DNA of 64,000 bases from a virus, in the IMG/VR virus record IMGVR_UViG_3300009849_000001, positions 1 through 64,000 of that record; one strand, given 5' to 3'. Within the stretch, counting starts at the first letter, position 1. Each line of letters opens with the position of its first letter. The notes beneath the pieces were generated by a model, which made no database searches, was not told the origin of the DNA, and saw only the letters and a list, made by a program, of their open reading frames with translations. This document shows, piece by piece, positions 18,525-57,345 of the stretch. A program made the translations under genes and the position numbers.

Positions 18525-20855
18525 TCATTGATGCATTGCAACTATATCACTTAGATTCATAGTTGATTTATTATTTTGCACTCTTTTATTCATTAAGGTT
18601 GAGTATCTATTATTGGCGGCAAGTAAGCACCCACCTCCTGCTGTAAGTAAATCATAGTTGGTCATTTGCTTAATGTGTTTTATTTCACGCCATTGCCTTA
18701 CTAATGATAAATGTCTCTCTCTACTTATATGGATTGCAATGTGATTACGGGTAGCTTTAAATAAATCATCCTTTGACTCTTTAAGGGATGCAAAACCAGC
18801 CACGGGCTTAACCTCTTTTGTAACCGGGTCAACCTTATGCATTAGATACCCTTTGCATCCCCTCGCGACAAAATGTGATAATATTAATTTCACATTGTTT
18901 TCCGGATACATGTATCCATTACAATAGATGGTCATCATTAGCATTTCCTCAGCATAGTAAGTATCTAGTTTTGGTCTAGCCAGATATGTAAGGATAAATC
19001 TGCAAGAAGACCACTGACTAACCGGTTTTGAATCCGGATCAATAGATGTATCCCTCTTCCAGAATGCAGCCCCTCCCCCATCAGACATTGTATCTCCATC
19101 AGCTTTTAGTTTTATCAAAGATGGGTCTAAGTGTTGAAAAGGGTCAGCACTGGTAACAATACCATGAATATCATTAGGGAAACTAATCTCATCAGGTTCA
19201 CCCTCTTCATTCATGAAGTATTCAGTGAATTTAAGATTTGTTTGGTCGGTCGGCAATTTTTTAGAAATTTCAAAATTCCCATTCGGATCCGTTTCCCAAA
19301 CAACCCTACCTTTGTGTTCATGAGCTGCGTAATGATTATCTACAAATTCTTTTGCAGAAACTTTAATGCCGTCAATCTCCCACATGAAATTGCCTCTTTC
19401 AACTGGATTTTGGTTATCCTTAAGGCGTTTAAGCTCTGAGATACGCCTATCCAAACCCTCCACGTCAAAACCAACATCACCACCAGTCATCCTAAAACAG
19501 TCATCATACTTACTTGGATACAACTGGACTAATTGTCTTAAATCTCGTAAAGATTTAGCATCACCTGCCCTTTGCAGTTCATCCATTGTTTCCTCAAGAT
19601 ACTGTTTTGCTCCAATATCCCTGTTTGTAAATGCCTTTTGAATATCGGTAGGCTCTCCAATAATAGACTCCCCGTAAGGACCAATAAAACCCTCTAATCC
19701 ATCATATGCAGGAATAAACAACCTGAACAATCCTGATTTGGTTTGCCCTGTAGGTCCTCTCTCGTAAAATTTTGATTGATTACAAAGGTGATTGAAAGCT
19801 TCACCGCCTCCTGACTCCATGTCTGCTACGGTGGTCGGGTGCATTGTGAACCCATGTATTAAGGCTCCACTACCCTGTGCTAATGTTTGTTTTACTACAG
19901 TATGACGTTGTCCAACATCTTCCTCTTTTGTTTTTCCGTTTTCATCGGATAAGTGAGCTATTTGTTTTTTACCATCATAAAATGATCTACTAGCCGTGGT
20001 TGCAAAATTTATTTTACTACCAAGTTGGTTCCCTAATACTTTATTTGATTGTCTTGAAAAATTAAGTTCTCCCGCAGGATCATTTGAACCCGACCACATA
20101 GGTTTTAGGAAAAATGGCAATTTCTGCCAGGCAGGAACTAATTTTGTTGTGAAATGATCACCTGCATTATCCTTATTGAAAGACTGGATACCAAACAGTC
20201 CATTGATACTACGCATAGCAATATGGTAGCCAATGGACAAGCATTTAAATGTAGCCCCATCCCTTCTGTGTTTTGGGTATGTGAATCCAAAGCAAGTTCT
20301 GAAATTAGTATTTTCACCTTTTTCATTCTCCTTTGTTGTATGGCAATATTCGGCAAAATTAAACCATCTTCTGTCTCTGTCTCTGTAATCAGGTAGTCCA
20401 ATATCAAGTTTCCAAAAGGAACAGTAAAAGTAATGCCATTTACTGATATAGGTAGGTTTACCGTTTATATAGCACCAATACCCCTTATCAAGGAATTCAA
20501 GTTCTCTGTATATCCAGTTAATCTCAAATATATATTCGGCTCTTTTATCATTTAAGATTATAAGAGTTTCTTCCAATATTCTTTGACCTGTTATAATCTT
20601 TTTGTTGTTCTGATTATATTCGGCTAATAGTCTTTTTTTGACTCCATCATCCAGTTGCAGTAACCTTTGAGGATATTTGTGTACTTTAAATTTTTGATCA
20701 ACTGCAGGTAATCCGTATCCCTCAATTAGATGTAGAGGTGGTGGTTTTGGTAAGAAAACCCTTATTGGGTCTAGGTCTGGATCATCTTCATGAACCATGA
20801 AAAATTTATCCGGATCACAATACTGATCTAATATTTCTTTTGAGACTCTCGGCAT
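18525..20855 (-). CDS. terL: Terminase large subunit (776 aa)
   Basis: Deviant Walker A-like KHRRDGAT and Walker B-like IAHLSDE. Size and position immediately upstream of the portal gene. Confidence 0.65.
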   Translation of the reverse strand: MPRVSKEILDQYCDPDKFFMVHEDDPDLDPIRVFLPKPPPLHLIEGYGLPAVDQKFKVHKYPQRLLQLDDGVKKRLLAEYNQNNKKIITGQRILEETLIILNDKRAEYIFEINWIYRELEFLDKGYWCYINGKPTYISKWHYFYCSFWKLDIGLPDYRDRDRRWFNFAEYCHTTKENEKGENTNFRTCFGFTYPKHRRDGATFKCLSIGYHIAMRSINGLFGIQSFNKDNAGDHFTTKLVPAWQKLPFFLKPMWSGSNDPAGELNFSRQSNKVLGNQLGSKINFATTASRSFYDGKKQIAHLSDENGKTKEEDVGQRHTVVKQTLAQGSGALIHGFTMHPTTVADMESGGGEAFNHLCNQSKFYERGPTGQTKSGLFRLFIPAYDGLEGFIGPYGESIIGEPTDIQKAFTNRDIGAKQYLEETMDELQRAGDAKSLRDLRQLVQLYPSKYDDCFRMTGGDVGFDVEGLDRRISELKRLKDNQNPVERGNFMWEIDGIKVSAKEFVDNHYAAHEHKGRVVWETDPNGNFEISKKLPTDQTNLKFTEYFMNEEGEPDEISFPNDIHGIVTSADPFQHLDPSLIKLKADGDTMSDGGGAAFWKRDTSIDPDSKPVSQWSSCRFILTYLARPKLDTYYAEEMLMMTIYCNGYMYPENNVKLILSHFVARGCKGYLMHKVDPVTKEVKPVAGFASLKESKDDLFKATRNHIAIHISRERHLSLVRQWREIKHIKQMTNYDLLTAGGGCLLAANNRYSTLMNKRVQNNKSTMNLSDIVAMHQ

Positions 20856-55714: not shown

Positions 55715-55927
55715 TTATTTTATGTTGTGGAACCTATCTCTCATCGAGATATCAAGCTCTTGCTCCATCTGGAATAAATCTTCTGCCAGTTTATGTGCGG
55801 CATCATCGGGAACATGAAAGCGTTTTAAATAATCATCAACTATTTCAGGTGATGATTTATTAGTTCCAATAGGTACGTTGTTTTTATACCACTGCATAAA
55901 CTGGGTTAATTCTGTTTTTAAATTCAT
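55715..55927 (-). CDS. Hypothetical protein (70 aa)
   Basis: ATGA overlap with the methyltransferase stop. Confidence 0.55.
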   Translation of the reverse strand: MNLKTELTQFMQWYKNNVPIGTNKSSPEIVDDYLKRFHVPDDAAHKLAEDLFQMEQELDISMRDRFHNIK

Positions 55928-56682
55928 TTTATTTTATCGTTATGGATTTGTATGCATTTAAATAAATAAAGAGCCACTAAAGGCATTACCGCGTTTCCTA
56001 TCGCTCCAATTCTGTCCAGGCTAAAGGGAATCCTATTAAATTTTCGCAGAAATCTGGACTTGGGTAAATCGGATCGTTTTCGCCATCCCGGATATATTCG
56101 TGTAAATTCCCTTTGTAAGTTGAGCTTCCTAAATATCTGTTGCGTGACGCTCCTTTCTTCGTGCTTGCTATGACGGTAGGCAATACAATATAGTCTTTTC
56201 CTACCCTGTTGGATTCCAAAGGTTGTGCCTGAAAGACATTGCCATTCTGCATAATACCCGATTCTGGAAAGGTCGCATAAGACTTGTTCGAATCCTCGAA
56301 CAGCAAGCATTGGGCTGTTTTCAATGATAATGTACTTGGGTCTAACTTGCCCCACAATCCTAAACATTTCACTCCACAATCCAGAACGCTGTCCTTTAAT
56401 TCCTTGGCCTTCTCCTGCAATGCTGATATCTTGGCATGGAAATCCACCGCTGATAATGTCAACATAGTCCGGGGTTTGTAATTTTCTAATATCTTCATAC
56501 TGCTTTGTTTCTGGAAAATTCTTCTTTAAAATTTTACGCTGAAATTCCTGTAGTTCACAACTCCATTTTGTTCTGATATCTAATAATCCTGCACCTAACT
56601 CAAATCCTCCAATACCGCTAAACAGTGAGCCATGGGTTAATTGTTCGTTATTGCTCATCGTGTTTCTTGTTGTATGTATCAC
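55924..56682 (-). CDS. Compact DNA (cytosine-5) methyltransferase (252 aa; alternative start ATG 56658)
   Basis: Motif I LFSGIGGF, motif IV GGFPCQDIS, motif VI IIIENSP, motif VIII QQGRKRLYCIAY, motif X IGNAVMPLV. Very short target-recognition region and no motif IX in this frame. Confidence 0.8.
   Translation of the reverse strand: MIHTTRNTMSNNEQLTHGSLFSGIGGFELGAGLLDIRTKWSCELQEFQRKILKKNFPETKQYEDIRKLQTPDYVDIISGGFPCQDISIAGEGQGIKGQRSGLWSEMFRIVGQVRPKYIIIENSPMLAVRGFEQVLCDLSRIGYYAEWQCLSGTTFGIQQGRKRLYCIAYRHSKHEERSVTQQIFRKLNLQREFTRIYPGWRKRSDLPKSRFLRKFNRIPFSLDRIGAIGNAVMPLVALYLFKCIQIHNDKIK
55998..56498 (-). CDS. Nested +1-frame ORF (166 codons) inside the C5-methyltransferase gene; candidate overlapping gene or frameshift product
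   Basis: Same strand, +1 relative to the methyltransferase frame. ATG start. Ends ...PDFCENLIGFPLAWTELER (motif IX-like GFP..W) just where the methyltransferase-frame motif X begins. Longest same-strand nested ORF in the window by almost 2-fold. Confidence 0.35.
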   Translation of the reverse strand: MKILENYKPRTMLTLSAVDFHAKISALQEKAKELKDSVLDCGVKCLGLWGKLDPSTLSLKTAQCLLFEDSNKSYATFPESGIMQNGNVFQAQPLESNRVGKDYIVLPTVIASTKKGASRNRYLGSSTYKGNLHEYIRDGENDPIYPSPDFCENLIGFPLAWTELER

Positions 56683-56911
56683 AAGCCTCTAAGAATGGCA
56701 CTACAGATACTTCGTTATCGTATGAATCCTCCATCCATTCAACATCTTTATCTTGTCCTTCTTTTCGTTTTGGATACGCATCGTCATGAGGTGCATATCT
56801 CGTAGCTTCCCATGGATTTGATTTGAGTTGAAAATTACCTGAATTTAGATAGAAATCCCCATCATCAAATGAAACTCGTATCACTGTTCTTTCTTTGTCT
56901 GTTATCTCCAT
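56648..56911 (-). CDS. Hypothetical protein (87 aa from ATG 56911)
   Basis: TAATG overlap with the HAD gene stop. The track start at 56968 would overlap the HAD gene by 58 nt. Confidence 0.55.
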   Translation of the reverse strand: MEITDKERTVIRVSFDDGDFYLNSGNFQLKSNPWEATRYAPHDDAYPKRKEGQDKDVEWMEDSYDNEVSVVPFLEACDTYNKKHDEQ

Positions 56912-57345
56912 TAATCTAAACCTCCAATTAAATTCATTTCCAAAAGCATATCTTCCACAGCATCCCAATCAACATATGGTCGGTCGGATAAATCGGGGTC
57001 ATCTGTTAATGGAATACCTAACGCAGCATCATCAATATACAACTGACAATAAGCTTTTGGGGAATTAGTCCAATTTTTTTGCGTGGGATTAGTCTGGATA
57101 CCGTACAATGGGATATCATTTTCTTTAAACCAATTAACTGCTGTGGTTAAATGATCACCGCCTTCAGGTATTATCTCTGGCCCTACCGGTTCGGGATTAG
57201 GTTTATTGCCTCGCATTGTAAACAATATTAACTGGTGGCCTTTTTCAACCAATTTCTTTAATACCGGCACTGAACCAATATTTTTACCCACTCTTGGAAA
57301 ATCATGCGTTACACATGTTCCATCAAAATCAATTCCTATAATCAT
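56911..57345 (-). CDS. HAD-superfamily phosphatase-like protein (144 aa)
   Basis: N-terminal IGIDFDGT (DxDxT nucleophile motif) and LFTMRG. Confidence 0.5.
   Translation of the reverse strand: MIIGIDFDGTCVTHDFPRVGKNIGSVPVLKKLVEKGHQLILFTMRGNKPNPEPVGPEIIPEGGDHLTTAVNWFKENDIPLYGIQTNPTQKNWTNSPKAYCQLYIDDAALGIPLTDDPDLSDRPYVDWDAVEDMLLEMNLIGGLD

What the first reader, a model, noticed from the sequence alone, without database searches (positions are those of the whole stretch)
55924..56682. 166-codon +1-frame ORF nested in a compact C5-methyltransferase gene, with methyltransferase-like motifs split between the two frames
What the sequence shows. Frame A (55924-56682) is a complete but unusually short C5-methyltransferase. 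It has motif I LFSGIGGF, IV GGFPCQDIS, VI IIENSP, VIII QQGRKRLY and X IGNAVMPLV, but no recognisable motif IX. The +1 frame is open for 501 nt (55998-56498, ATG start). The next longest same-strand nested ORF in this AT-rich window is 89 codons. The +1 product ends ...IYPSPDFCENLIGFPLAWTELER, which looks like the missing motif IX (..L.GFP..W). Its stop lies inside the codons for RIGAIGNAV of frame A. Reading frame B and then frame A therefore gives a textbook IX-X junction. The +1 segments FHAKIS and SGIMQNG are literally the +1 readings of FPCQDIS and IGYYAEW. Recollection and hypotheses. From memory, strings of the type F[PH]AKTS...SGMM.NG...LPT...[LM]MGFP..WT occur in a family of phage hypothetical proteins; I cannot verify this here. 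Three explanations are possible: (i) a genuine overprinted gene; (ii) programmed frameshifting that produces alternative methyltransferase isoforms (A to B to A); (iii) a stop-free shadow of a constrained frame.
Basis: partly seen in the sequence, partly recalled or inferred. Interest (0 to 1): 0.85.

Follow-up and report, generated by a model that had tools for sequence, protein, structure and literature searches.

The report
Two-subunit phage cytosine methyltransferase, nested genes
One stretch of phage DNA is read in two frames to make the two halves of a single DNA cytosine methyltransferase, an arrangement first described in 1995 for the E. coli enzyme M.EcoHK31I that turns out to be very common in phages and is routinely mis-annotated.

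Summary
On the minus strand, a 166-codon ATG-to-stop ORF (beta, 55998-56498) lies in the +1 frame inside a 244/252-codon C5-methyltransferase gene (alpha, 55924-56658/56682). No synonymous shuffle of alpha (0 of 20,000) gives so long an open +1 frame. The +1 ORF stays open in 48 of 50 related phage loci, whereas ordinary C5-methyltransferases carry 3-15 stops across the same motif IV-VIII span.

Across the overlap, alpha's synonymous diversity falls by about 40%. In the stretch between motifs VIII and X the most variable codon position is beta's wobble position, not alpha's.

Alpha holds motifs I-VIII and X. It models as the M.HhaI large domain plus a low-confidence 55-residue spacer. Beta carries the LPT and motif IX-like (LIGFPLAWT) segments that alpha lacks.

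This matches the architecture published for M.EcoHK31I. GenBank records of phages MM1 and Lily already annotate such nested genes. Programmed frameshifting is not supported. The "shadow" idea explains only part of beta's N-terminal sequence similarity.

Verdict: new member of a known kind. Beta-like proteins form at least 42,513 clusters (50% identity) and match no Pfam or NCBIfam model.

The parts
55924..56658 (-). alpha gene: C5 DNA methyltransferase large (catalytic, AdoMet-binding) subunit, 244 aa from the ATG. An alternative GTG start at 56682 gives 252 aa.
   Evidence: Pfam PF00145 E=1.1e-40, but only profile positions 4-181 of 324 are matched. phrog_363 E=5.8e-58. TIGR00675 E=1.1e-33. 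Residues 11-165 align to M.HhaI 16-175 at E=4e-17. AF2 model has pTM 0.77; Foldseek matches M.HhaI and M.HaeIII over 162-170 columns, about half of the target. An identical 244-aa protein, P0242, is in the database.
55998..56498 (-). beta gene: 166-aa ORF in the +1 frame, wholly inside alpha. Proposed small subunit carrying the LPT and motif IX-like segments.
   Evidence: ORF verified. It cannot be obtained by chance. It is conserved and open in 48 of 50 related loci. phrog_1008 E=2.5e-14. There are 29 close and 42,513 distant protein-cluster homologues. Codon-position signature.
56499..56528 (-). A-rich leader upstream of the beta ATG (taaagaagaattttccagaaacaaagcagt ATG), lying inside alpha codons KKNFPETKQY.
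   Evidence: Sequence. No Shine-Dalgarno sequence is present, which is what I would expect for a Bacteroidota-type host (my own knowledge; the host is inferred from homologues in Bacteroides phages). In Firmicute relatives the equivalent ATG has AGGAG or AGAGG 12-13 nt upstream.
56602..56625 (-). alpha motif I, LFSGIGGF (AdoMet binding), in the alpha-only region
   Evidence: In this alpha-only region, diversity at alpha codon position 3 is 0.34.
56422..56448 (-). alpha motif IV, GGFPCQDIS (catalytic Cys). The same bases read in beta give DFHAKIS.
56311..56328 (-). alpha motif VI, IIENSP
56188..56211 (-). alpha motif VIII, QQGRKRLY
56164..56499 (-). Overlap zone 1: alpha motifs IV-VIII are the dominant frame, and the beta N-terminal half (residues 1-~111) is overprinted on them.
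   Evidence: Diversity at alpha position 3 is 0.21 here against 0.34-0.41 in the alpha-only regions (Mann-Whitney p=6e-10). Amino-acid identity is 0.85 for alpha and 0.74 for beta, against 0.58 for the +1 frame of the non-overlapped N-terminus.
55999..56163 (-). Overlap zone 2: the beta LPT and motif IX-like segments are the dominant frame. Alpha reads a variable, poorly modelled spacer here.
   Evidence: Alpha position 1, which is beta's wobble position, is the most variable: 0.275 against 0.205 at alpha position 3. Against the closest homologue the figures are 0.364 and 0.127. Amino-acid identity is 0.72 for beta and 0.66 for alpha. AF2 pLDDT of alpha residues 166-220 is 36-65.
56160..56186 (-). 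beta VLPTVIAST. The T is invariant across the beta alignment (LPTPTA in most relatives). Read as a target-recognition-type segment.
   Evidence: T108 is invariant in alignment A2. LPTPT(A/K)S(D) is seen in relatives. The target-recognition reading rests on resemblance to the P-T-L-T motif of C5-methyltransferase recognition domains (my own knowledge; inference).
56010..56045 (-). beta ENLIGFPLAWTE, a motif IX-like segment
   Evidence: Consensus E.LMGFP.GWT. The only region that hhalign aligns between the beta tail and canonical C5-methyltransferases is their motif IX (P=0.017, 17 columns). The best PDB profile hit is motif IX of a plant DRM methyltransferase (E=1.6, not significant). The motif is present in beta only where alpha lacks RLQGFP.
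55975..56001 (-). alpha motif X, IGNAVMPLV, starting just after the beta stop
   Evidence: AF2 pLDDT is 82-93 for the C-terminal helix. Diversity at alpha position 3 returns to 0.41 here.
55924..55927 (-). ATGA overlap between the alpha stop and the start of the next gene (70 aa, 55715-55927)

Best explanation
The locus encodes a cytosine-C5 DNA methyltransferase made of two polypeptides that are read from the same DNA in two frames.

Alpha (244 aa) is the large domain: the AdoMet-binding and catalytic motifs I-VIII, plus motif X, which folds back onto that domain. Where a single-chain enzyme has its small, DNA-recognising domain, alpha has only a roughly 55-residue spacer that models poorly.

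Beta (166 aa) starts at its own ATG in the +1 frame just upstream of motif IV. Its C-terminal 60-70 residues carry the LPT and motif IX-like segments that alpha lacks. Its N-terminal roughly 100 residues are the alternative reading of alpha's motif IV-VIII region. By analogy with M.EcoHK31I, they probably hold beta on alpha.

The two chains would assemble into one enzyme that methylates the phage's DNA, most likely to protect it from host restriction.

Shown here: both ORFs exist; both are under purifying selection; the motifs are shared out between the frames in a complementary way. Inferred: that beta is translated, that alpha and beta form a heterodimer, that the complex is active, and what its biological role is.
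For: - The ORF cannot be obtained by chance.
- The +1 ORF is at least 150 codons long in 48 of 50 related loci from Bacteroides, Porphyromonas, Paenibacillus, Mycobacterium, Stenotrophomonas, Vibrio, Acinetobacter, Microcystis and Sulfitobacter phages and from viral contigs. About 27 canonical C5-methyltransferases that share GGFPCQD.S have 3-15 stops in the +1 frame.
- Codon-position diversity in 28 distinct close homologues: alpha's synonymous position falls from 0.34-0.41 to 0.21 in the overlap (p=6e-10). Between motifs VIII and X the most variable position is beta's wobble position. The closest homologue shows the same pattern.
- Alpha aligns to M.HhaI residues 16-175 only. Its AF2 model is confident for residues 10-165 and 221-244 and poor for 166-220. 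Foldseek matches cover about half of M.HhaI.
- Complementarity: LMGFP..WT occurs in the +1 frame in the 18 of 80 genome loci where my pattern found it. In none of those does alpha carry the [LM][QM][GS][FY][PD] motif IX pattern (for example RLQGFP).
- hhalign places the beta tail on motif IX and nowhere else.
- Streptococcus relatives have a conserved AGGAG, and phage Lily an AGAGG, 12-13 nt upstream of the beta ATG.
- Literature: in M.EcoHK31I, beta is encoded entirely in another frame of the alpha gene. Alpha has motifs I-VIII and X, beta has motif IX, both chains are required, and deleting the beta N-terminus weakens association (PMC2836561; PMC3404938).
- GenBank annotators already mark such nested genes: MM1 orf13/orf14, 'C5 methyltransferase alpha/beta subunit', and Lily LILY_63, 'g62 internal gene'.
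Against: - There is no direct evidence of translation or activity for this locus.
- Beta alone models poorly (mean pLDDT 53).
- Beta matches no Pfam or NCBIfam model.
- A spliced alpha-beta-alpha sequence does not extend the PF00145 match.
- The motif IX assignment rests on a 17-column profile alignment (P=0.017) and a non-significant PDB hit (E=1.6).
- Part of beta's N-terminal similarity is a by-product of alpha's conservation.
- Two close relatives (L021, L038) have a stop in the N-terminal half of beta. Either that half is dispensable there or those copies are decaying.
- I could not obtain the M.EcoHK31I sequence, so homology to it, as opposed to the same architecture, is untested.
Confidence: 0.85

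Rival explanations
1. Beta is a real, translated, conserved overprinted protein, but it is not a methyltransferase subunit. It could be, for example, a regulator of the enzyme or an unrelated phage protein, and alpha works alone or with a host factor.
For: A beta-like +1 ORF of 142-188 codons also sits in Streptococcus phage and prophage methyltransferases whose main frame already has motifs IX (RLQGFPDW) and X. So the beta core is not tied to supplying motif IX. Beta alone is predicted to be largely unstructured.
Against: - In the window's class, alpha has no small domain at all, and beta carries exactly the missing segments.
- In the Streptococcus class the beta tail (CSLSDILEE.V..YFLS) is a segment that a canonical enzyme without a beta ORF has in its main frame (L130). 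This again points to a piece of the enzyme.
- M.EcoHK31I needs both chains.
Confidence: 0.07
2. A single polypeptide is made by two programmed ribosomal frameshifts (alpha to beta after motif VIII, then beta to alpha before motif X), which would restore the canonical order I-VIII, recognition domain, IX, X.
For: Splicing the frames gives ...LIGFPLAWTELE/RIGAIGNAV, a plausible IX-X junction. Rare relatives have beta and motif X in one frame (P0050, P0188, P0208, P0226; L136).
Against: - This model does not explain why the +1 frame is kept open, with an ATG, about 100 codons upstream of the first shift, and up to the first codon of alpha in many relatives.
- The beta stop moves by up to about 6 codons and the surrounding sequence varies among close homologues.
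- Long beta forms read through and past motif X in their own frame.
- I saw no slippery motif at the window's beta-to-alpha crossing (GGAGCGATAGG). This was read by eye, not scanned, and the alpha-to-beta crossing was not examined.
- An SD-like sequence precedes the beta ATG in Firmicute relatives.
- M.EcoHK31I is biochemically two chains.
Confidence: 0.04
3. The +1 ORF is a non-coding shadow of a constrained frame, a chance ORF, or a methyltransferase pseudogene broken by two compensating indels.
For: With stops masked, the +1 reading of canonical methyltransferases still scores up to 27 bits against the beta profile. So some of the similarity is automatic.
Against: - 0 of 20,000 synonymous shuffles keep the frame open.
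- Canonical enzymes have 3-15 stops there.
- The ORF is kept across phyla and at GC contents of 0.35-0.45.
- Beta's wobble position is the fastest-evolving position in the tail region.
- Independent assemblies agree.
Confidence: 0.02

Closest known systems
M.EcoHK31I (E. coli; Lee, Kam and Shaw 1995, as described in PMC2836561 and PMC3404938)
   Same: A C5-methyltransferase made of two polypeptides. Beta is encoded entirely within the alpha gene in another reading frame. [quoted passage not shown] The N-terminal part of beta matters for binding alpha. From my memory of the 1995 paper, beta is 176 aa, much like the 166-177 aa seen here.
   Different: It is part of a cellular restriction-modification system, whereas this is an orphan phage enzyme. 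The literature places the predicted target-recognition domain of M.EcoHK31I in alpha (309 aa, from memory). Here alpha is 244 aa with only a poorly modelled 55-residue spacer, and the LPT segment lies in beta.
Streptococcus phage MM1 orf13/orf14 (GenBank DQ113772, 'C5 methyltransferase alpha/beta subunit')
   Same: A phage gene with an annotated nested +1 ORF over motifs I-VIII. Its beta core resembles the window's beta: FRARLSAL...SLKTS...WGMMWNG. Bacterial-genome loci of the same architecture (Streptococcus prophages, same beta tail) score E=1e-12 to 1e-18 against the beta profile.
   Different: MM1 alpha is a complete 385-aa enzyme with its own recognition region, motif IX (RLQGFPDW) and motif X. 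Its beta ends in CSLSDILEE.VDERYFLS and has no motif IX.
Paenibacillus phage Lily LILY_62/LILY_63 ('g62 internal gene') and Mycobacterium phage Che9d gp80
   Same: The same class as the window. Alpha is 252-254 aa with motifs I-VIII and X. The nested +1 beta is 163-198 aa with LPTPTA/HTPTT and LMGFP..WT.
   Different: Beta is only 28-34% identical to the window's beta. The hosts are in other phyla. In Che9d the nested ORF is not annotated.
M.AquI (two-subunit C5-methyltransferase; PMC3404938)
   Same: A natural split of a C5-methyltransferase within the variable region into two polypeptides. A relative of the window's family, L136, is built this way: alpha holds I-VIII, and beta holds the recognition region, IX and X.
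   Different: In M.AquI, motifs IX and X are both on the small subunit. In the window, motif X is back in the alpha frame and beta is fully nested.
Monomeric C5-methyltransferases (M.HhaI, M.HaeIII)
   Same: Alpha residues 11-165 align to M.HhaI 16-175 (E=4e-17). The alpha model superposes on their large domain.
   Different: In those enzymes a single chain holds the small domain between motifs VIII and X. The canonical relatives sampled here have a closed +1 frame.

Membership tests
C5 DNA methyltransferase (Pfam PF00145 / TIGR00675) | Motifs I (FxGxG), IV (PCQ, catalytic Cys), VI (ENV) and VIII (QxRxR) in one chain | tested here: met
   LFSGIGGF, GGFPCQDIS, IIENSP and QQGRKRLY in alpha. PF00145 E=1.1e-40. 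TIGR00675 scores 117 bits against a cut-off of 100.65.
C5 DNA methyltransferase (Pfam PF00145 / TIGR00675) | A target-recognition (small) domain and motif IX between motifs VIII and X in the same chain | tested here: not met
   The Pfam match stops at profile position 181 of 324. Nothing in alpha corresponds to M.HhaI 176-327. The spacer has pLDDT 36-65. The motif IX-like segment is in the +1 frame.
C5 DNA methyltransferase (Pfam PF00145 / TIGR00675) | Motif X (GNxV) at the C-terminus | tested here: met
   IGNAVMPLV at 55975-56001. The C-terminal helix is modelled with confidence.
M.EcoHK31I-type two-polypeptide C5-methyltransferase | The beta ORF lies entirely within the alpha gene, on the same strand, in another frame | tested here: met
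   Beta 55998-56498 lies inside alpha 55924-56658, offset 184 nt, which is the +1 frame.
M.EcoHK31I-type two-polypeptide C5-methyltransferase | Alpha carries motifs I-VIII and X but not IX | tested here: met
   No RLQGFP-type motif is present in alpha (pattern, and the window sequence).
M.EcoHK31I-type two-polypeptide C5-methyltransferase | Beta carries motif IX | tested here: inconclusive
   ENLIGFPLAWTE fits the motif IX pattern. hhalign aligns the beta tail only to motif IX of canonical enzymes, at P=0.017 over 17 columns. The best PDB profile hit is motif IX of a DRM methyltransferase, but at E=1.6. Pfam does not recognise it. The distribution is complementary to alpha's motif IX across loci.
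M.EcoHK31I-type two-polypeptide C5-methyltransferase | The predicted target-recognition domain lies in alpha (as stated for M.EcoHK31I in PMC2836561 and PMC3404938) | tested here: not met
   The alpha spacer is only about 55 residues, poorly modelled, and evolves under beta's reading frame. The conserved LPT(P)T segment is in beta.
M.EcoHK31I-type two-polypeptide C5-methyltransferase | Sequence homology to M.EcoHK31I alpha and beta | not testable with these tools
   The sequence was not retrievable. The 1995 paper is not held, the 2009 paper has no supplement held, and no hit was named EcoHK31I.
M.EcoHK31I-type two-polypeptide C5-methyltransferase | Both polypeptides are made and both are required for methylation | not testable with these tools
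   This needs expression and activity assays. The only indirect support is selection on both frames and an SD-like sequence upstream of beta in Firmicute relatives.
M.AquI-type split C5-methyltransferase | Motifs IX and X are both on the small subunit, and alpha ends after motif VIII | tested here: not met
   In the window, motif X is in the alpha frame. The AquI-like layout does occur in a relative, L136, and in 4 of 241 sampled beta proteins.
Programmed ribosomal frameshift gene | A conserved slippery site at each frame junction, and no independent start for the second frame | tested here: not met
   I saw no slippery motif at the window's beta-to-alpha junction; this was read by eye and no scan was run. 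The alpha-to-beta junction was not examined. The beta stop position and its context vary. Beta has its own ATG far upstream, with an SD-like sequence in Firmicute relatives.

The most novel reading that the evidence does not exclude
The nested +1 gene may not be a rare curiosity of M.EcoHK31I. It may be the default architecture of a very large clade of phage and prophage C5-methyltransferases.

A profile of beta finds at least 42,513 protein clusters (50% identity) among proteins that gene callers have predicted. No Pfam or NCBIfam model covers them, and annotation pipelines pick alpha or beta seemingly arbitrarily.

Across the clade, pieces of the small DNA-recognition domain are shared between the two frames in complementary ways:
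- recognition segment and motif IX in beta;
- recognition segment, motif IX and motif X in beta;
- only the first recognition segment in beta, with alpha otherwise complete.

The N-terminal 'core' of beta is an overprinted reading of the catalytic domain. In some lineages it runs from alpha's first codons (MSWL... is the +1 reading of NELALFAG) to beyond motif X. That would make this one of the largest families of long same-strand, fully nested dual-coding genes in prokaryotic viruses, and a natural system for swapping methyltransferase specificity by exchanging beta tails.
Probability: 0.4. Interest if true: 0.75.

Novelty: new member of a known kind. Interest (0 to 1): 0.5.

Why it matters
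For this locus, the short "methyltransferase without a recognition domain" is only half of an enzyme. Its specificity cannot be predicted from alpha alone, and the other half is hidden in a frame that annotation pipelines discard.

Practically, gene callers report either alpha or beta for the same locus:
- ENA calls beta (P0005) and NCBI calls alpha (P0250) on contigs of identical length that I take to be the same contig.
- The GenBank CDS of Vibrio phage 1.236.O is the beta frame.

As a result, tens of thousands of "hypothetical proteins" and truncated-looking methyltransferases in phage and metagenome databases are two views of one gene.

Scientifically, the family offers hundreds of independent, deeply conserved examples of 150-350-codon same-strand overlaps between two interacting polypeptides. 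That is useful for studying how overprinting arises and how two frames share constraint. The codon-position signal switches frame inside the gene. The variable beta tails may also explain how phage methyltransferases diversify their targets.

Tried and rejected
- AF2 of beta alone with 61 homologues gave mean pLDDT 53 and pTM 0.26. That is too poor for a fold search, so none was run.
- A spliced alpha(1-165) + beta tail + alpha C-terminus sequence, the beta tail plus motif X, P0050 and a long beta were scanned against Pfam at E up to 10. The PF00145 match was not extended and no family matched beta.
- A profile search of beta against PDB sequences gave only non-significant hits (best E=1.6, DRM motif IX; glycolipid transfer protein at the same level, which I regard as chance).
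- hmmsearch of the beta-tail profile against 13 canonical enzymes gave 6 bits or fewer, always at motif IX. hhalign gave P=0.017.
- I tried to obtain M.EcoHK31I and MM1 primary papers (PMC306636, PMC151507) and the phage orphan-methyltransferase review (PMC3837797). None is held. No supplement is held for PMC2836561.
- Four literature searches for a description of a widespread nested beta gene in phage methyltransferases found none. They did turn up the ShiLan out-of-frame HNH element in actinophage methylases (PMC11855218), which is a different phenomenon.
- megablast of 20 kb of the window against the phage collection gave no match. There are no tRNAs in the window.
- An exact look-up of P0242 found no contig on record.
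- Chance, shadow frame and double-indel pseudogene were considered and rejected on the comparative data. Programmed frameshifting was considered and rejected for the reasons given under the rival explanations.
Full report
**1. What is in the sequence**

Both reading frames are on the minus strand.
- Frame A runs 56682 to 55924 (GTG start, 252 aa). Homologues begin at M(x)THGSLF, and a 244-aa protein identical to the ATG-started version is in the protein database (P0242). The likelier start is therefore the ATG at 56658.
- Frame B runs 56498 to 55998 (ATG start, 166 aa). It begins 184 nt into A, which is the +1 frame. It is stop-free for 175 codons, whereas the +2 frame of A has 22 stops.

Permuting synonymous codons of A 20,000 times never produced 175 open +1 codons (mean 54, maximum 159). 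The +1 stop frequency in the window's long ORFs is 0.078 per codon, giving P of about 7e-7.

**2. What the two products look like**

Alpha (frame A):
- It matches Pfam PF00145 at E=1e-40, but only profile positions 4-181 of 324.
- It aligns to M.HhaI residues 16-175 at E=4e-17, with nothing corresponding to M.HhaI 176-327.
- An AlphaFold2 model built on 86 homologues (pTM 0.77) is confident for residues 10-165 and 221-244. It is poor (pLDDT 36-65) for residues 166-220.
- Foldseek superposes the model on M.HhaI and M.HaeIII over 162-170 columns, about half of the target.

So alpha looks like the large, catalytic domain (motifs I-VIII plus the motif X helix), joined by a poorly modelled spacer where single-chain enzymes have the small DNA-recognition domain.

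Beta (frame B):
- It matches no Pfam or NCBIfam model.
- It matches PHROG 1008, "DNA methyltransferase", at E=2.5e-14.
- Its tail reads ...VLPTVIAST...ENLIGFPLAWTELER.
- In a 61-sequence alignment the T of LPT is invariant, and the consensus of the tail is E.LMGFP.GWT.

**3. Both frames are conserved**

Protein search with beta found 29 relatives of 145-227 aa. In two of their contigs the gene caller had called beta rather than alpha, although both frames are open.

tblastn of beta against the phage collection found 46 records, 38 of them covering at least 80% of beta. They come from phages of Bacteroides, Porphyromonas, Paenibacillus, Mycobacterium, Stenotrophomonas, Vibrio, Microcystis, Sulfitobacter and Acinetobacter, and the matches lie under genes annotated as methyltransferases.

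Across 50 related loci fetched from phage records and viral contigs, the +1 ORF is at least 150 codons long in 48. The exceptions, L021 and L038, have a stop in the N-terminal half of beta but keep the tail. In several lineages beta starts at alpha's first codons (MSWLFSQ... is the +1 reading of NELALFAG) and runs to or past motif X, covering 230-345 codons.

A negative control came from 80 bacterial-genome loci that share GGFPCQD.S.
- About 51 of 78 keep the +1 frame open across motifs IV-VIII.
- About 27 are canonical enzymes, with RLQGFP or RLMGFP in the main frame and G+C of 0.30-0.45. They carry 3-15 stops there, and their open stretches are only 29-88 codons.

An open +1 frame is therefore not an automatic property of C5-methyltransferase genes.

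**4. Which frame is constrained where**

I built a codon alignment of 28 distinct close homologues (alpha identity 48-100%) and measured nucleotide diversity at each alpha codon position.

| Region | Position 1 | Position 2 | Position 3 |
|---|---|---|---|
| Alpha-only N-terminus | 0.16 | 0.15 | 0.34 |
| Overlap, alpha motifs IV-VIII | 0.15 | 0.10 | 0.21 |
| Overlap, alpha VIII-X spacer | 0.275 | 0.18 | 0.205 |
| Alpha-only C-terminus | 0.17 | 0.10 | 0.41 |

- The drop at alpha's synonymous position (position 3) in the overlap is significant (p=6e-10).
- In the spacer region the most variable position is alpha position 1, which is beta's wobble position.
- There, beta is more conserved as protein than alpha (amino-acid identity 0.72 against 0.66).
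- The closest homologue (78% alpha identity, L134) shows the same switch. Alpha position 3 differs at 0.41, 0.20, 0.13 and 0.52 of sites across the four regions, and position 1 differs at 0.36 of sites in the spacer.

Alpha is thus the dominant frame over motifs IV-VIII, with extra constraint from beta. Beta is the dominant frame between motifs VIII and X.

**5. Is the beta tail the missing small-domain piece?**

- A profile-profile comparison of the beta tail with an alignment of 13 canonical enzymes aligns only one region, y.nP..EwLMGfPiGW on kLT..E..RLqGFPd.f. That region is motif IX (P=0.017, 17 columns).
- The best PDB profile hit is motif IX of a plant DRM methyltransferase, but at a non-significant E of 1.6.
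- Pfam does not extend its match on a spliced alpha-beta-alpha sequence.
- The strongest argument is distribution. In the 80 genome loci, my pattern finds LMGFP..WT in the +1 frame of 18. In none of these does alpha carry the [LM][QM][GS][FY][PD] motif IX pattern.
- Rare relatives carry beta and motif X in one frame (4 of 241 sampled). In the one whose contig I read (L136), alpha stops after motif VIII. This gives the canonical order recognition segment, IX, X in a single frame.

I rate the motif IX assignment as probable but not proven.

**6. Independent initiation rather than frameshifting**

- Beta has its own ATG about 100 codons upstream of the tail.
- In Streptococcus relatives that ATG is preceded by a conserved AGGAG, and in phage Lily by AGAGG, 12-13 nt upstream.
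- The window has an A-rich leader and no Shine-Dalgarno sequence. That fits a Bacteroidota-type host (my own knowledge; the host is inferred from the Bacteroides-phage homologues).
- The beta stop and its context vary among close homologues.
- I saw no slippery motif at the beta-to-alpha crossing. This was read by eye, and the alpha-to-beta crossing was not examined.

**7. Comparison with what is known**

Two papers describe M.EcoHK31I. It has alpha and beta chains that must associate for activity. [quoted passage not shown] N-terminal truncations of beta weaken association (PMC2836561; PMC3404938).

The window has the same architecture. GenBank records already mark nested genes of this kind in phages:
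- MM1 orf13/orf14, "C5 methyltransferase alpha/beta subunit";
- Lily LILY_63, "g62 internal gene".

There are two differences from the M.EcoHK31I description. Alpha here has no room for a recognition domain, and the LPT segment is in beta. I could not obtain the M.EcoHK31I sequence, so homology, as distinct from the same design, is untested. I therefore file this as a new member of a known kind.

**8. What goes beyond the known example**

*Scale.* A profile of beta finds 42,513 protein clusters at 50% identity with E of 1e-3 or better, 24,431 at 1e-10 and 8,595 at 1e-30. No Pfam or NCBIfam model covers them.

*Annotation.* Pipelines report one frame or the other for the same locus.

*Shadow effect.* Part of beta's N-terminal similarity is a by-product of alpha's conservation. 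With stops masked, canonical genes still score up to 27 bits against the beta profile. What is selected is mainly the open frame, the start, and reduced synonymous change.

*An unexplained class.* Streptococcus phage and prophage enzymes have a complete main frame, with motifs IX and X. They still carry a 142-188-codon +1 ORF over motifs I-VIII. Its tail, CSLSDILEE.V..YFLS, is a segment that one canonical enzyme without a beta ORF has in its main frame (L130). This suggests a general rule that beta carries whichever piece of the small domain alpha lacks. What beta does in those enzymes is unknown.

**9. Context**

The window is part of a tailed-phage genome, with portal, large terminase and structural proteins all on the minus strand. 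It has no close relative in the phage collection and no tRNA genes. The alpha stop overlaps the next gene's start (ATGA). No restriction endonuclease was identified nearby: the flanking ORFs have no PHROG match except a phosphoheptose-isomerase-like protein. I take the enzyme to be an orphan methyltransferase, probably used against host restriction (inference).

**10. Verdict**

- The best explanation is a two-polypeptide C5-methyltransferase with a nested beta gene (confidence 0.85).
- Frameshifting (0.04), an unrelated function for beta (0.07) and shadow, chance or pseudogene (0.02) are the rivals.
- Interest is 0.5. The prototype is 30 years old and phage examples are already annotated. The size of the family, its invisibility to standard annotation and the Streptococcus-type puzzle are still worth following up.

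Noticed in passing
L051:482-1768(-), L052:611-1768(-), L053:796-1749(-); also L089, L090, L093, L097, L106, L110, L115, L116: Streptococcus phage and prophage C5-methyltransferases with a complete main frame (motif IX RLQGFPDW, motif X GNSV) still carry a 142-219-codon +1 ORF over motifs I-VIII. The ORF ends in CSLSDILEE.V..YFLS, and an AGGAG lies upstream of its ATG. One canonical enzyme without a beta ORF (L130) has the equivalent segment in its main frame. The role of this 'beta' is unexplained.
   Followed up: partly
L136:97-1449(+) and L136:153-848(+): An M.AquI-like variant of the same family. The alpha frame holds motifs I-VIII and then stops after 232 codons. The +1 frame gives a 450-aa product in one frame: beta core, five WPTP/LPT repeats, LMGWPSNWT, then GVPARVERLKAIGNGQVP (motif X).
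   Followed up: partly
L021 and L038 (viral contigs), alpha ORFs at about 1500-2230: Two close relatives have a stop codon in the N-terminal half of beta, leaving only 96-98 open codons from ...SKSYATFP onward. They may be decaying copies, or copies that use an internal start.
   Followed up: no
Proteins P0064, P0036, P0052: These database 'proteins' begin in the alpha frame (motif I, or I-IV) and continue in the beta frame. They may come from frameshifted contigs or be real fusions. P0052 also has an HNH_3 (PF13392) insertion, reminiscent of the ShiLan out-of-frame HNH element of actinophage methylases (PMC11855218).
   Followed up: no
L013:1003-1701 (Vibrio phage 1.236.O, NVP1236O_59); L003:3001-3501; L004:3001-3534: The deposited or called CDS at these loci is the beta frame, annotated 'hypothetical protein', and the methyltransferase frame is left uncalled. 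On a 2.97-Mb Bacteroides contig, ENA calls beta (P0005). An NCBI-sourced alpha (P0250) is listed on a contig of identical length, which I take to be the same one.
   Followed up: partly
L008, L011 and L048 against the window, at the beta tail / alpha pre-X region: In the nested forms, beta's MGWPIGWTDL..EMDKFQSW and alpha's DGV.NRVDRLKAIGNGQV are encoded by the same bases. In L136 the two motifs lie about 35 residues apart in a single frame. So two separately conserved motifs appear to be superimposed in the compact genes. How that arose is unclear.
   Followed up: no
window 18525-20855 (-): The second-longest same-strand nested +1 ORF in the window, 89 codons, lies inside the large terminase gene.
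   Followed up: no
window 56911-57345 (-): A 144-aa ORF two genes upstream of the methyltransferase matches phrog_1238 ('phosphoheptose isomerase', E=2e-29). Its start, MIIGIDFDGT, looks like a HAD-type phosphatase motif (my own reading).
   Followed up: no
window 55924-55927 (-): The alpha stop codon and the start of the next gene (70 aa, 55715-55927) overlap as ATGA, which suggests translational coupling within the operon.
   Followed up: no
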